Source of the DNA: a virus
Lineage: Duplodnaviria > Heunggongvirae > Uroviricota > Caudoviricetes
Strand: one strand, 5' to 3'
DNA: 38,240 nucleotides
IMG/VR virus record: IMGVR_UViG_2541047968_000009
Coordinates: 1-38,240 of that record
In this document: positions 30,001 to 33,000 of the stretch, one piece after another
Numbering within the stretch: position 1 is the first letter of the stretch
How the letters are laid out: each line of letters starts with the position of its first letter
Program-made: the position numbers

Positions 30001-33000
30001 CTGATGCTGAATGGCATTAGCGCCGGTGCCAGGTGTTTTAGCACCGCCACTTCCTCCGCTACCACCAGCCTTATGCATCGCATATGCACCTACCGCACCC
30101 AAACCAGCGCCAACAAGAGAGGCTCGCCCCTGTTGTTTCGTAAACGCAGCCTGTGCGTCCGATTTAGCTTTTGCCAGACTGCTGTCTGCCAGCGAGTTAA
30201 AACTCTGTAACGCATCTGCCTTCTGACCGGAACCGAGAGCCGCAACATCCTGTAGCCCGGCAATATATTTATCTGCCTGCGATACCTGCCCCCGTGTGGT
30301 CGTGTCAATCTGCCCGATCACCTGGTCGCTTTGATTTGCATCCATTACTGCATTAAAACGACCACTGGATGGGTCAACGCCGGACTGAGCAAGATTACCC
30401 GCCAGCTCCCTTCGCGCTTCACCAAACTGTTTCTGATACCCAAGATTTGTTGTGCCTGCGATATTTTCGTACTGCTGCTCACTGTTAAGGTCATCGACCT
30501 TTTTCATGAAGTTATCTTCTGCCGGACGGAGAATATTTTTGTAATCCTGCCACCCTTTCCAGGCCACCTCTTCCTGTGCTATTTGCGCTGCTGTTGGTTT
30601 TACTTTGGTATCACCACCACCTTTACTTCCGCCCATAATGGCTCCTCAGATAACAAAAAACCCTGCCGGAGCAGGGTCAGAATGTGAATTGCAATGTGGG
30701 TTTACGCTCGATGATGAATACAGTGGCAGTCAGACTGCTATCCTGAACACCATGAAGCCATCCTCATCATCCGGCATTCGCTCAAAGCCCAGACGTTTTC
30801 CCAGCCGGATAAATCCTCGTCTTGCCGTATGAAATTCGGCCCAGCGTCCGCCAGCCAGGCGGGTTAATGTCTTCACCTCCGGCAGATAACGCTCAACACT
30901 CTTACTCCCCGTACACACGCCCAGTAACACCAGAACATAAGGGATACCATCGTCACTGAGCACAGAACGCAGCACCAGAAAACCATCCGGCGCTTCAAAG
31001 CAAAACGCCTGCTTTTTAAGGCAGGCGTCTTTAACTTCATTCATAAATTCAGGGTTGCGGGAATTTCTCACAACACGCTGCATATACCGGAGAATTCTGT
31101 CGTCCATTCTCTCACCTGAAACGGGTGCCATATCGGCTGAACCTCAGCAACCAGTTGACGGGGACTTTCGTCCCCGTCGCGGTTTTCCTACTGCTTACAC
31201 TGTAAGAACGCCGCAAACTCCGCTCCCCACAAATTCAGCCGGAACTCACACAACGAGCCGTGTAACATCCAGATGGTGAAGATTACCGTCATACAAATTG
31301 TGACGGTGATGAGCGATTTTTGCGACATAGCGCTTGCCTCCTGAGTGGAGAGGCGCTAACCTTCTACTTGCTTAAGGTATGATGGTTAGGGCCTCGGGTT
31401 AAACAAAATGTTTGACTCGGGGCCTTTCCACATCAGGCCTTCAGGTTCTCCCTCCAGCCATCAGCCGAAAGGCACCCGCGCATAATCTACGATTTTTGCC
31501 CTGCACGGGCAACAAAAAACCCGCCATCACAGCGGGTTATGACATGTTGTCGGGTATTACTCAGAATTTCAGGCCAATGCCTGCAAATAAACCATCAGTT
31601 TTCCAGTCGCCAGAGCCTGAGCTTTCATAAGTGACGTCCATAGTAACACTTTCATTGAAGTTAAATTGCGCGCCGACAGACCATGCAATAGACGTTTTTT
31701 TGGTGCTGTTACTTTCAGAAAAACTACCGGCACCATGATTAAGATTGTCGTTAATTTTCAAGTCAGTGGTGACTTTTGCAACCCCCATGCCAGCCATTGC
31801 ATACACACTGAGGTATTCGTTAAACCGCCACGAAGGACCGGATAGTAGACTCCAGTAATTAGCCCTGATATCAGTTCTCGCTGAAGCTGCCGGGTTTTTT
31901 ACCTCTCGTGATGGATCGGAAGGCTTAACATCAATAAATGCCTGCGCATTAGTCATGGAGCGCGCCCATGTAAAAGAGGCTATAACACCCAGTTCATCAG
32001 TTATCTCGTAACGATACCTGATGCTCATCCCCAGGGGGCTTTTGGCTGTGCCGTCATGCCCCCGGGCAATAGCATTTTCGTATTCAGCTGATGAATTAAA
32101 ATGGTTTACGTTTACAACATTCCTGAACGTATCCCGGTTATAAACACCCGCGTCTCTAACAAAATCCTTCAGCCCGGGGAAGCGTATGTGTGCAAACCCG
32201 AGAGATACCGTACTATCGCCTGATGCTGCATTTACCTGTGCAGTTAAGCAACTCATCACCAGAACTGCACACGCAAAAAATTTCATGATACTTTTCATTT
32301 TAAGTATTTCTCTGAATTAAAGGATGCGATGTCTGAAAGGAACGCTTTCGTTTTACACTATTAAAGTTTTTCTTACGCTAATCATATATTGAGGAATTAA
32401 TAACCAGAACTTTATCTATATACGGCTTCCGAATATCCCATGTTGCACGACCGGAATAATGCTCACAGGAATATATTTTATTTCCTGTAGCCCCCGTTGA
32501 TGTGGTGTAAATCGGTCGGTCATAAGGTGTACGCTGCCAGTTATAATACCCAACCAGTGCAGGCATAATTGCGCATGGATATCCAAGATCCTTCTCAAAC
32601 TTGATATCAACTGGTATTAACTTCGCGTCAAGCAGCATCATTTCGCCATGGTAAATCATCTCACCCGACGGGTTATACATGGCAATACCATACTCAGAAG
32701 GTTGAGTAACCATATTCGCAAAAGCATAAACAGTCGTAACACCAGGATTCGTTCCCCTGACAATTTGATGAAGCCTTAAGGCATGATATCCATCAATCTG
32801 TTCATGTGTGTACATGACATCGGCCTTTTTCTCTGTTCTGATAAAGAAAAAACAACTTTTTCCTGACGGGATTGATGTTTTAAAAAAAGCCTTCTCAGTC
32901 GCCGGAATAGTTCCCTTATTGATCAGACACTGAGGCGTAAACCCCGGGCTTATCCACAAGCTGCCATCTGGTTTCGTAATGCTTAAACCATACATACAAC

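What the first reader, a model, noticed from the sequence alone, without database searches (positions are those of the whole stretch)
31140..31560. Unannotated HokA-like type I toxin gene between the Lom-like gene and the structural ORFs
A 46-codon ORF with an AGGAGG Shine-Dalgarno encodes a peptide with the Hok family layout (TM helix, SLCE, AAF motif) and resembles HokA as I recall it. It is too short for the ORF track. Hok loci normally include an overlapping mok frame and an antisense Sok RNA in the 5' leader; these should lie in 31328-31510 but cannot be assigned by eye. A hairpin (GACGGGGAC-tttc-GTCCCCGTC, 31160-31181) sits just past the stop. Together with lom this looks like a moron cassette placed inside a phage operon.
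Basis: partly seen in the sequence, partly recalled or inferred. Interest (0 to 1): 0.55.

Follow-up and report, generated by a model that had tools for sequence, protein, structure and literature searches.

The report
Known prophage Hok toxin–antisense module
The small ORF is a real Hok-family membrane toxin gene with its antisense-RNA control region, carried as cargo by a Shiga-toxin-phage-like prophage; it is already annotated elsewhere and the exact peptide is listed among those tested for toxicity, so it is ordinary apart from lacking the usual "mok" leader frame.

Summary
Window 31188-31328 (-) encodes a 46-aa peptide behind AGGAGG. It passes Pfam HOK_GEF (33.2 bits, cutoff 22) and PHROG 251 (E 2.8e-24). 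The hairpin is real, at 31157-31178, 3 nt from the stated coordinates.

The gene is already known. The identical locus is annotated "Hok/Gef family protein" (WP_000078907.1) in E. coli RefSeq genomes. The exact peptide is entry 72_1589 of a 2025/26 Hok survey, listed among the tested sequences and not among the three reported non-toxic. The phage 933W reference record encodes it but leaves it unannotated.

It is neither HokA (45% identity, below the NCBIfam cutoff, different cluster) nor the characterised HokW (36%).

I mapped a ~355-nt module, 31477-31123. It has its own promoter, a 5'-3' tac/fbi-type closure, a hairpin that sequesters the Shine-Dalgarno, and a 3' stem-loop. A Sok-like antisense RNA is predicted at about 31369-31427 (+), from a promoter whose -10 box is invariant in 13 of 13 homologs.

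Across 11 homologs, 94.8% of pair cells form and 19 pairs covary (0 of 500 shuffles reach this). dN/dS is 0-0.5.

The overlapping mok frame, required in plasmid R1, is absent here and not conserved in this subfamily. That is the only unusual point. RNA expression and regulation remain untested.

The parts
31510..31538 (-). Intrinsic terminator of the upstream lom gene (AACCCGC-TGTGAT-GGCGGGTT followed by TTTTTGTT). It separates lom from the hok unit.
   Evidence: Terminator scan; sequence.
31484..31512 (-). Predicted hok promoter: -35 TTGCCC (31512-31507), 17-nt spacer, -10 TAGATT (31489-31484).
   Evidence: Read from the sequence. The same layout occurs in every homolog (TTGCCG/TTGCGG/TTGAAA with TAGATT/TAAATT/TACAGT/TACATT/TAGAAT). 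It matches 8 of 12 consensus positions, so the simple scan, which needs 9 of 12, did not list it. Inferred, not shown.
31123..31477 (-). Conserved hok mRNA module, 355 nt from the predicted +1 (G31477) to the end of the fbi element. This is the block shared with unrelated genomic contexts.
   Evidence: In non-Sepvirinae contexts, homology covers query 104-478, which is window 31497-31123. Position 1 of the Rfam sok/hok-leader model aligns at 31477. MFE -158.5 kcal/mol, z -7.08. 101 consensus pairs, 19 of them covarying.
31461..31477 (-). tac-like 5' element: GGGUGCC (31477-31471) and UCGGCUGA (31468-31461), which pair with the 3' end.
   Evidence: helices 1 and 2, 98.7% and 98.5% of cells paired.
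31123..31140 (-). fbi-like 3' element: UCAGCCGA (31140-31133) and GGCACCC (31129-31123). It overlaps the annotated ATG (31131) of the downstream ORF.
   Evidence: Homology with loci in other contexts stops exactly here.
31386..31433 (-). 15-codon upstream ORF (AUG UGG AAA ... UAA) preceded by an SD-like GAAGG. It does not overlap hok. Its length runs from 1 to 61 codons among homologs, so it is not a conserved mok.
31334..31362 (+). Predicted promoter of the Sok-like antisense RNA: -35 TTGCCT (31334-31339, overlapping the hok SD), 17-nt spacer, -10 TAACCT (31357-31362).
   Evidence: The -10 box is invariant in 13 of 13 homologs. The -35 is TTGCTC or TTGCCT in 11 of the 13; in the two 933W-type loci I read it by eye as TTGACT with an 18-nt spacer. 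My recollection of the R1 sok promoter (TTGCGC-17-TATCCT) has the same layout, but I did not check that here. It matches 7 of 12 consensus positions, so the simple scan did not list it. Inferred.
31369..31427 (+). Predicted Sok-like antisense RNA of about 60 nt: a 5' tail of about 20 nt (31369-31388), a terminator-like hairpin (31389-31424) and UUU (31425-31427).
   Evidence: Fold -39 kcal/mol, z -6.66. The hairpin is kept in all 13 homologs despite sequence and loop-length changes. Both ends are predicted, not mapped.
31364..31378 (-). Leader segment ACCUUAAGCAAGUAG. It is complementary to the Sok 5' tail, and in the full-length fold it pairs with the 3' UTR at 31154-31141.
   Evidence: Helix 6: 5 of its 12 pairs have compensatory changes (for example UA:6/CG:5 and GC:5/AU:5).
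31141..31154 (-). 3' UTR partner (CUGGUUGCUGAGGU) of the leader segment 31378-31364.
31328..31358 (-). Hairpin that sequesters the translation start: UAGCGC (31358-31353) pairs with GCGCUA (31333-31328, including the A of AUG), and anti-SD CUCC (31350-31347) pairs with GAGG of the SD (31340-31337).
   Evidence: Helices 7 and 8 (100% and 93.2% of cells paired).
31188..31328 (-). hok coding sequence, 46 codons plus stop. Both cysteines are hard-coded (C27 in SLCE, C44 in QCK).
   Evidence: dN/dS is 0-0.52, and against the 933W-type copy there are 7 synonymous and 0 non-synonymous differences. The peptide is identical to 72_1589.
31157..31178 (-). 3' stem-loop GACGGGGAC-GAAA-GTCCCCGTC. No U-run follows it on the hok strand, so it is not the hok terminator. 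It is probably the protective end of the 3'-trimmed mRNA. On the + strand a T-run follows it.
   Evidence: Helix 16 is 100% paired with 4 covarying pairs. The role is assigned by analogy with the terminal stem-loop of truncated R1 hok mRNA (PMC9841398).
31005..31028 (-). First terminator-like hairpin downstream of fbi (ACGCCUGC-CUUAAAAA-GCAGGCGU followed by UUUGCUUU), inside the downstream ORF. It is a candidate 3' end for the full-length hok mRNA in this phage context.
   Evidence: It is invariant in four Sepvirinae copies, but the whole stretch is 98% identical, so this is uninformative. In P2-like contexts a clear terminator lies about 35 nt after fbi. Speculative.

Best explanation
This is a genuine Hok/Gef-family type I toxin-antitoxin module: a 46-aa inner-membrane toxin plus a cis-antisense Sok-like RNA. 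It is carried as accessory cargo next to lom in the late region of a 933W-like (Sepvirinae) prophage inserted in ynfG.

Proposed mechanism:
1. The hok mRNA starts at about G31477 from its own promoter.
2. The full-length RNA is closed by 5'-3' pairing (tac 31477-31461 with fbi 31140-31123). The leader segment 31378-31364 is tied to the 3' UTR at 31154-31141. The SD and AUG are locked in a local hairpin (31358-31328). In this form the RNA is neither translated nor bound by the antisense RNA.
3. Slow 3' trimming back to the stable stem-loop at 31178-31157 removes both 3' partners. The 5' end can then pair with GAAAGGCCCC (31428-31419), and the leader refolds.
4. An unstable antisense RNA of about 60 nt, transcribed from 31369/70 to about 31427 on the + strand, pairs with the refolded leader. 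The duplex is degraded, and/or the SD hairpin re-forms.
5. When antisense synthesis stops (loss of the prophage, transcription shut-off, or head-on late transcription after induction), Hok is made and depolarises the membrane.

Unlike R1 hok/sok, there is no overlapping mok frame. Hok would have to be translated directly from its own AGGAGG.

What is shown: the ORF, its family membership, purifying selection and the conserved RNA structure. What comes from the literature: the exact peptide is listed among the tested sequences of a survey and is not among the three it names as non-toxic. What is inferred: both promoters, the RNA ends, the 3' processing, the antisense action and the biological role.
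For: Family: Pfam HOK_GEF 33.2 bits against a cutoff of 22; PHROG 251 at 85.8 bits; NCBIfam's best hits are the HokA and Hok family models. The identical locus is annotated Hok/Gef in RefSeq. The exact peptide is 72_1589, cloned as pAZ3::72_1589. The survey reports 42 of 45 tested homologs toxic and names the three exceptions, which do not include it. Coding selection: dN/dS 0-0.52; 7 synonymous and 0 non-synonymous changes against the 933W-type copy; length fixed at 45-47 codons in 13 homologs. RNA: full-length MFE -158.5 kcal/mol with z -7.08, closed by the 5' and 3' ends. The consensus structure of 11 distinct homologs has 101 pairs, 94.8% of cells paired and 19 pairs with compensatory changes, against 9.4 +/- 1.9 in shuffles (0 of 500) and 1-6 in slid controls. 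The Rfam sok/hok-leader model aligns over its full length from 31477, E 6e-08. Antisense unit: the -10 TAACCT is invariant in 13 of 13, and the hairpin is kept through indels and base changes, z -6.66. Modularity: the same block, promoter to fbi, occurs in P2-like phages, lambdoid prophages, IncI1 plasmids, Salmonella and E. albertii. The mechanistic template comes from R1 hok/Sok (PMC9841398) and from hokW-sokW of Sp5 (PMC8621323).
Against: No transcript data were available, so both promoters are only weak consensus matches (8 of 12 and 7 of 12) and were not listed by the simple scan. The Rfam sok hit (42.1 bits) is below the gathering score of 59. The mok frame that is mandatory for R1 hok translation is absent, so the R1 mechanism cannot be transferred as it stands. 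Modelled SD accessibility changes little between states (0.21 full-length, 0.27 truncated, 0.21 with the Sok target blocked). tac, its proposed alternative partner and the -10 region are invariant, so they give no covariation evidence for the refolding step. The native hokA, hokB and hokC chromosomal loci were reported not to mediate post-segregational killing and not to be activated by rifampicin (cited), so an intact-looking locus need not be active. The 3' end of the full-length mRNA in this phage context is unknown.
Confidence: 0.85

Rival explanations
1. It is a canonical R1-type hok/mok/sok locus. Hok translation is coupled to an overlapping mok leader frame whose ribosome-binding site is the true Sok target.
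For: The leader is homologous to the Rfam sok/hok-leader model over its full length. An SD-like GAGG is kept at the position of the mokC and R1 mok SD (CCCGAGGCC). In three homologs (L008, L012, L016) an upstream AUG opens a frame that runs 80 nt into hok.
Against: In the window, both overlapping frames are open only from -35 and -43 relative to the hok AUG. Neither contains ATG, GTG, TTG, CTG, ATT, ATC or ATA upstream of that AUG. The upstream AUG (31433) stops after 15 codons, 57 nt before hok. In other homologs it is followed at once by UGA or UAG (L009, L013, L014). The frame is therefore not conserved within the subfamily.
Confidence: 0.07
2. It is an evolutionary relic. The peptide is toxic when forced, but the native locus is silent and does nothing for the phage or host, as was proposed for the K-12 chromosomal hok loci.
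For: [quoted passage not shown] Loss of mok could be a disabling change. Degenerate copies exist, such as the truncated L015.
Against: The peptide is under purifying selection. Compensatory changes are spread across the whole mRNA fold, including the 3' UTR. The promoter boxes are invariant. The module is kept in at least five kinds of mobile element, and the 501-nt locus query finds a match in 1750 of 5426 complete E. coli genomes. mok is absent or variable in all intact-looking members rather than broken in one.
Confidence: 0.12
3. The module's main role is as an auxiliary lysis or release factor switched on by prophage induction, as shown for hokW-sokW of Sp5. On this view it is not a maintenance or addiction device. 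This rivals only the biological role, not the identity.
For: For hokW-sokW, sokW disappears and HokW appears after mitomycin C, and phage release halves without the locus (PMC8621323). Here hok lies in the sense orientation within the late operon, directly after the lom terminator. The Sok-like promoter fires head-on against late transcription, which could lower Sok on induction.
Against: There are no data for this locus. It is a different Hok cluster (36% identity to HokW), in a different place and orientation context from hokW. The same module also sits in plasmids and P2-like prophages, where late-operon read-through does not apply.
Confidence: 0.3

Closest known systems
Hok cluster 72 (peptide 72_1589) in Escalera-Maurer et al., bioRxiv 10.1101/2025.08.07.668861; RefSeq WP_000078907.1 'Hok/Gef family protein'; PHROG 251
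   Same: The amino-acid sequence is identical. The survey places it in a 'high-abundance cluster', lists it among the tested sequences and does not name it as non-toxic.
   Different: Nothing at the peptide level. That survey deliberately did not analyse Sok, mok or mRNA structure, so the regulatory anatomy given here is additional.
hok/mok/sok of plasmid R1 (the type I toxin-antitoxin paradigm)
   Same: A small membrane toxin. A highly structured mRNA closed by 5'-3' (tac/fbi) pairing. A 3' stem-loop. A sequestered translation start. A cis-antisense RNA from a promoter in the leader just upstream of the hok SD.
   Different: Only 34% peptide identity. No overlapping mok frame, whereas mok translation is mandatory in R1. 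The hok SD itself, rather than a mok SD, lies in the conserved hairpin. The Rfam score is below gathering.
HokA (E. coli K-12 hokA/mokA/sokA)
   Same: It is the closest named Hok: 45% identity over 40-47 residues. Both cysteines are hard-coded, so no TadA recoding should be needed. The two share the ...WM...SLCE...AAFL.CK pattern.
   Different: It scores 38.4 bits against the equivalog cutoff of 89. It falls in a different 60%-identity cluster, 72 against 93. It is 46 aa rather than 50. It is prophage- or plasmid-borne rather than at the cspA-adjacent chromosomal site. hokA has an annotated mokA.
hokW-mokW-sokW of Stx2 phages 933W and Sp5 (Takada et al. 2021, PMC8621323)
   Same: Also a Hok-family type I module carried by the same group of phages. 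It gives the only experimental evidence for what a hok locus does in such a prophage.
   Different: It is a different gene: a 51-aa HokD-type peptide (35_712), 36% identical. It has a mok frame and sits near the right prophage end (933W 58460-58734). The window lacks it. 933W carries both loci, and the lom-adjacent one is unannotated there.

Membership tests
Hok/Gef toxin family (Pfam PF01848) | Profile score at or above the curated gathering score | tested here: met
   33.2 bits against a cutoff of 22, E 4e-08, covering residues 8-44. PHROG 251: 85.8 bits over residues 1-46.
Hok/Gef toxin family (Pfam PF01848) | Peptide of about 45-55 aa with an N-terminal hydrophobic helix and the residues conserved in more than 80% of Hok peptides (M1, C-x-T in the helix, L-C-E, a later E) | tested here: met
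   46 aa with M1, C12, T14, L26-C27-E28 and E37 all present. The sequence was compared by eye with the published logo description.
Hok/Gef toxin family (Pfam PF01848) | Toxic to E. coli on expression (membrane damage) | not testable with these tools
   From the literature only. The exact peptide 72_1589 was cloned (LRP157). The preprint states that 42 of 45 tested homologs were toxic and names three non-toxic ones, none of which is this peptide. I did not see the figure itself.
hok/sok-type type I toxin-antitoxin locus (R1 paradigm) | 5'-3' fold-back (tac/fbi) closing the full-length mRNA | tested here: met
   The MFE and the consensus structure both pair 31477-31461 with 31140-31123. These helices are 98.5-98.7% paired across 11 homologs, with only G-C to G-U changes.
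hok/sok-type type I toxin-antitoxin locus (R1 paradigm) | Conserved, covarying overall mRNA structure, including a stable 3' stem-loop | tested here: met
   19 pairs have compensatory changes (0 of 500 shuffles reach this; slid controls give 1-6). The 3' stem-loop is 100% paired with 4 covarying pairs.
hok/sok-type type I toxin-antitoxin locus (R1 paradigm) | Cis-encoded antisense RNA (Sok) with its own promoter and terminator hairpin in the leader | tested here: inconclusive
   The sequence features are present and conserved: -10 TAACCT in 13 of 13, a 17-nt spacer in 11 of 13 (18 nt in the two 933W-type loci by my reading), a hairpin with z -6.66 and a short U-run. The promoter is a weak consensus match, and no expression data were available.
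hok/sok-type type I toxin-antitoxin locus (R1 paradigm) | Overlapping mok leader frame to which hok translation is coupled | tested here: not met
   There is no start codon of any of seven kinds in either overlapping frame upstream of the hok AUG. The upstream ORF ends 57 nt before hok and varies from 1 to 61 codons among homologs.
Rfam RF01794 (sok / hok leader) | Covariance-model score at or above the gathering score | tested here: not met
   42.1 bits against 59. The alignment is full-length (model 1-157) and E is 6e-08 in the 901-nt search. There was no hit at gathering threshold in the whole window.
HokA (NCBIfam NF007290 equivalog) | Score at or above the equivalog cutoff | tested here: not met
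   38.4 bits against 89. 45% identity to K-12 HokA. Separate 60%-identity clusters, 72 and 93.
HokW (933W/Sp5 hokW-sokW) | Orthology to the 51-aa HokW at the right end of the prophage | tested here: not met
   36% identity. The hokW start sequence is absent from the window. In 933W the two loci are separate, at 45660-45797 and 58460-58734.
Phage moron (accessory cassette in a late operon) | Non-essential gene with its own promoter and terminator, placed between structural genes and found in other contexts | tested here: inconclusive
   A terminator precedes it and it has its own predicted promoter. The module also occurs in unrelated elements. PHROG's category is 'moron'. The G+C dip covers lom and the gene upstream of it, not hok itself. 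Autonomous transcription was not shown.

The most novel reading that the evidence does not exclude
Hok cluster 72 may be a naturally mok-less branch of the hok/sok family. Hok would be translated directly from its own SD. The antisense RNA would then act not by blocking a leader ORF but by triggering duplex cleavage and/or letting the SD hairpin (31358-31328) re-form once it sequesters the leader segment that otherwise holds the hairpin open. In 933W-like phages, the head-on placement of the antisense promoter in the late operon could additionally couple toxin release to induction. Nothing in the papers I read here describes the regulation of this cluster. The only survey that lists it did not analyse Sok or mok.
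Probability: 0.4. Interest if true: 0.35.

Novelty: already known. Interest (0 to 1): 0.17.

Why it matters
As a gene discovery it adds little. The peptide is in RefSeq, in PHROGs and in a published catalogue, and it is listed among the sequences tested for toxicity.

Three small points have practical value:
1. The 933W reference record (and many Stx-phage records) leaves this second hok locus unannotated. Such phages therefore carry two type I toxin modules, not one.
2. The module boundaries and RNA elements mapped here give exact targets for deletion and promoter mutations.
3. The lack of a mok frame in a conserved, covarying hok mRNA suggests that mok coupling is not universal in the family. 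That bears on how Hok homologs are annotated and on how Sok-type antisense RNAs repress translation.

Tried and rejected
1. Rfam at gathering threshold found no hok/sok family in the window. The match appeared only in the permissive search.
2. The simple promoter scan listed neither proposed promoter, at 8 of 12 and 7 of 12 matches. They rest on conservation and on the shared layout.
3. I first took the 408-aa ORF at 16153-17379 for an integrase. The near-identical annotated genome (98.8% over this stretch) calls it a PAPS reductase, and the prophage end lies in ynfG.
4. I first assumed this was the published hokW. The primers and peptide in that paper show a different 51-aa Hok, absent from the window and located elsewhere in 933W.
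Only two (Salmonella, E. albertii) showed the module on inspection. Three others I inspected were not hok loci, and I judged the remaining 58 to be chance matches from their record titles only. The homolog set therefore stayed at 13, of which 11 were aligned.
6. Partition-function modelling of SD accessibility in the full-length, truncated and Sok-blocked states moved in the expected direction in most homologs, but only by about 0.05-0.25. It is not decisive.
7. Treating the conserved upstream AUG (31433) as a mok start was rejected. The frame stops early here and immediately in three homologs.
8. Literature searches for hok + lom + 933W, and for the peptide string or accession in main texts, found nothing. 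The peptide turned up only in the supplementary tables of the Hok survey.
9. I did not run the large protein-database, structure-prediction or fold-search tools. Identity was already settled by exact matches.
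Full report
**1. The observation**

On the minus strand, window 31328-31188 is a 46-codon ORF: MSQKSLITVTICMTVIFTIWMLHGSLCEFRLNLWGAEFAAFLQCKQ. AGGAGG lies at 31342-31337, 8 nt upstream of the ATG.

The ORF is not a chance reading frame:
- Pfam HOK_GEF scores 33.2 bits against a gathering score of 22, E 4e-08.
- PHROG 251 ('MokW-like host killing', moron category) scores 85.8 bits, E 2.8e-24, over the full length.
- NCBIfam's best models are HokA (38.4 bits) and the Hok family model (22.7 bits). 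Both are below their strict cutoffs.
- The seven positions conserved in more than 80% of 1264 Hok peptides are all present: M1, C-x-T, L-C-E and a later E (compared by eye).

**2. It is already known**

- A 501-nt query around the ORF matches 198 phage records, almost all of them Stx-converting or other Sepvirinae phages. It also finds a match in 1750 of 5426 complete E. coli genomes. 417 of those keep the lom-hok-downstream context.
- In RefSeq the 100%-identical locus is annotated 'Hok/Gef family protein', WP_000078907.1. Several phage records call it 'MokW-like host killing', 'small toxic polypeptide' or 'host toxic membrane protein'.
- A recent survey of Hok diversity (bioRxiv 10.1101/2025.08.07.668861) lists exactly this peptide as 72_1589, in a 'high-abundance' 60%-identity cluster 72.
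- Its Table S2, which lists the experimentally tested sequences, includes this peptide, and the plasmid pAZ3::72_1589 (LRP157) is in the plasmid list. The text says 42 of 45 tested homologs were toxic and names the three that were not, none of which is this one.
It has not been done for the native locus.
- 'Unannotated' is true in one notable place. The phage 933W reference (NC_000924/AF125520) encodes the identical peptide at 45660-45797, in a gap between lom and L0129 that has no feature.

**3. What it is not**

It is not hokW. The characterised hokW-sokW of Sp5/933W (PMC8621323) is a 51-aa HokD-type peptide (MKQQKAM...DYESEK, survey id 35_712). It is 36% identical to this one. It is annotated with mokW and sokW at 933W 58460-58734, near the right prophage end, and is absent from the window. 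933W-type phages thus carry two hok loci.

It is not HokA either. HokA is the nearest named relative, at 45% identity, and both have hard-coded cysteines. But the HokA equivalog cutoff is missed by a wide margin, and the survey places HokA in cluster 93, not 72.

**4. Surroundings**

Most of the window aligns at 97-99% identity with a UPEC chromosome. In that genome the annotation shows:
- a Qin/Rac-like prophage end;
- rspAB and ynfA-F;
- then the end of a 933W-like prophage inserted in ynfG.

That prophage carries antirepressor genes, a PAPS-reductase/IbrB pair, a Panacea-domain gene, a giant LPD38 protein and virion genes. The order then runs phrog_610, hok, lom, a membrane-associated protein (phrog_425) and tail fibre genes.

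hok reads in the same direction as the late genes. lom ends with a clear intrinsic terminator (31538-31510). lom and phrog_425 have lower G+C (39-47%) than the flanks (51-57%), while the hok module itself is about 51%.

**5. The module and its boundaries**

In other genomic contexts the similarity covers only window 31497-31123. These contexts are:
- P2-like Xuanwuvirus P88 and related prophages, after ogr;
- a lambdoid prophage, between gpJ and the tail fibre gene;
- IncI1 plasmids;
- an O157 island;
- Salmonella and E. albertii.

The shared block starts at the -10 region of a promoter-like site: TTGCCC at 31512-07, 17 nt, TAGATT at 31489-84. It ends exactly at GGCACCC (31129-23). Position 1 of the Rfam sok/hok-leader model aligns at G31477, 7 nt after the -10 box. 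I take 31477-31123 (355 nt) as the conserved mRNA module.

**6. RNA structure**

The 358-nt RNA folds to -158.5 kcal/mol (z -7.08). Its ends pair: GGGUGCC and UCGGCUGA with UCAGCCGA and GGCACCC. This is the tac/fbi arrangement of R1 hok mRNA as described in PMC9841398.

I aligned 11 distinct homologs (mean column identity 84%) and folded the alignment.
- There are 101 consensus pairs, and 94.8% of pair cells form standard pairs.
- 19 pairs carry compensatory double changes. Column shuffles give 9.4 +/- 1.9 (0 of 500 reach 19), and sliding the partners gives 1-6.

The informative helices are:
- (a) Leader 31378-31364 with 3' UTR 31154-31141: 5 of 12 pairs covary.
- (b) The 3' stem-loop 31178-31157: 4 of 9 pairs covary and all cells are paired.
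- (c) A local hairpin in which UAGCGC/GCGCUA and CUCC/GAGG enclose the SD and the A of the AUG (31358-31328).
- (d) A long helix between the first and last parts of the coding region.

No U-run follows it on the hok strand. By analogy with R1, it is the protective end of the 3'-trimmed mRNA rather than a terminator.

**7. The antisense RNA**

On the + strand, TTGCCT (31334-39), a 17-nt spacer and TAACCT (31357-62) lie just upstream of the hok SD. My recollection of the R1 sok promoter (TTGCGC-17-TATCCT) has the same layout; I did not check that here.

The -10 box is invariant in all 13 homologs. The -35 is TTGCTC or TTGCCT in 11 of them. In the two 933W-type loci I read it by eye as TTGACT with an 18-nt spacer.

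A transcript starting at about 31369/70 would have a tail of about 20 nt, then a strong hairpin (31389-31424) and UUU. The 73-nt stretch folds to -39 kcal/mol, z -6.66. The hairpin is maintained in every homolog despite base changes and loop-length indels.

It remains a prediction. The promoter matches only 7 of 12 consensus positions, the simple scan did not list it, and I had no expression data.

**8. mok**

In R1, translation of the overlapping mok frame up to the hok SD is mandatory for Hok synthesis.

In the window, the two frames overlapping the hok start are open only from -35 and -43. Neither contains any of ATG, GTG, TTG, CTG, ATT, ATC or ATA before the hok AUG.

At the position homologous to the mok start of hokC and R1, the SD-like GAGG is kept but is followed by CCCUAACC.

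A conserved AUG further upstream (31433, preceded by GAAGG) opens a 15-codon ORF that stops 57 nt before hok.
- In three homologs a 1-nt difference in the hairpin loop lets this frame run 80 nt into hok.
- In three others the AUG is followed at once by UGA or UAG.

A mok frame is therefore not a conserved feature of this subfamily. The survey that catalogued the peptide did not analyse mok or Sok.

**9. Selection on the peptide**

ORF length is 45-47 codons in all 13 homologs. dN/dS ranges from 0 to 0.52. Against the 933W-type copy there are 7 synonymous and no non-synonymous differences.

One phage, phi367, keeps the Sepvirinae leader and 3' UTR but has a coding region only 68% identical. That coding region resembles the island-type peptide, so the module is mosaic.

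**10. How it most likely works**

- Shown: a conserved, selected toxin ORF inside a conserved, covarying, end-closed mRNA.
- From the literature: the peptide is in the survey's tested set and is not among the three named non-toxic homologs.
- Inferred by analogy with R1 and hokW: the full-length mRNA is inert. 3' trimming to the 31157 stem-loop removes the partners of the 5' end and of leader 31378-64. The 5' end can then pair with GAAAGGCCCC (31428-19), as in the MFE of the truncated RNA, and the leader refolds. The short-lived antisense RNA binds the refolded leader and the duplex is destroyed. When antisense supply fails, Hok is made.
- Without mok, Hok must initiate at its own AGGAGG. A plausible repression route is that Sok binding frees GGUUAGCGCC to re-form the SD hairpin. 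My accessibility modelling supports this only weakly: 0.21, 0.27 and 0.21 for the full-length, truncated and Sok-blocked states in the window, with the same direction in most homologs.
- The biological role is open. It could be prophage or plasmid maintenance, induction-coupled help with lysis as shown for hokW, or exclusion of other phages. In this phage the antisense promoter faces oncoming late transcription, which could tie toxin release to induction. That is speculation.

**11. Verdict**

The gene is a known, annotated member of the Hok/Gef family, listed among the peptides tested for toxicity.

Two things go beyond existing annotation: the mapped regulatory anatomy, and the absence of a mok frame in an otherwise complete hok/sok-type module. 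Interest is low. The mok-less regulation is a modest, testable variant.

Noticed in passing
window 14664-14752 and 15201-15286 (+): Two matches to Rfam sRNA-Xcc1 (RF02221), at 69.1 and 73.4 bits against a gathering score of 53. Each lies just upstream of an antA/AntB-type antirepressor ORF at the prophage end, which suggests a repeated structured 5' leader or sRNA ahead of the ant genes.
   Followed up: no
NC_000924 (phage 933W) 45660-45797; loci L003 1661-1798 and L082 6461-6735: The 933W reference genome encodes the identical 46-aa Hok in an unannotated gap between lom and L0129. It annotates a second, different locus (mokW/hokW/sokW) at 58460-58734. Such phages therefore carry two hok modules. 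The window's prophage lacks hokW.
   Followed up: yes
window ~14265-14350: The prophage-chromosome junction lies inside ynfG. Only the first ~28 codons of the 4Fe-4S protein remain, annotated as a pseudogene in the near-identical UPEC genome. The 933W-like prophage therefore uses ynfG as its attachment site here.
   Followed up: partly
window 16153-18621: An accessory gene cluster sits between the giant LPD38 virion protein (19549-27912) and the prophage end. It comprises a PAPS-reductase-like gene (16153-17379), an IbrB-like gene (17364-18008) and a Panacea-domain gene (18097-18621, - strand). This may be defence or TA-type cargo.
   Followed up: no
window 31005-31028 (-) and 31105-31131: A terminator-like hairpin (ACGCCUGC...GCAGGCGU followed by UUUGCUUU) sits inside the ORF downstream of hok. 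The PHROG 610 profile begins at residue 9 of that ORF, so its true start is probably ATG 31107-31105 rather than the annotated ATG 31131, which overlaps the hok fbi element.
   Followed up: partly
window 31386-31433 (-): A 15-codon upstream ORF with an SD-like GAAGG lies in the hok leader. Among homologs the same AUG opens frames of 1 to 61 codons, depending on loop-length indels and point changes. It may matter for ribosome loading, but it is not a conserved mok.
   Followed up: partly
locus L006 (phage vB_EcoP_phi367) against L005 and L010: phi367 keeps the Sepvirinae hok leader and 3' UTR (87% and 98% identity to the window). Its coding region is only 68% identical and resembles the O157 island type (MPQKTIIV...). 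This indicates recombination or rapid diversification confined to the toxin ORF.
   Followed up: partly
window 31156-31179 (+): Read on the + strand, the hok 3' stem-loop is followed by CGGTTTTCCT, and the scan scores it as terminator-like. It could stop transcription entering hok from downstream on the opposite strand.
   Followed up: no
window 1-3982: A second prophage end of Qin/Rac type (exonuclease, excisionase, integrase) lies next to rspB. The window therefore spans parts of two prophages separated by rspAB and ynfA-F.
   Followed up: no
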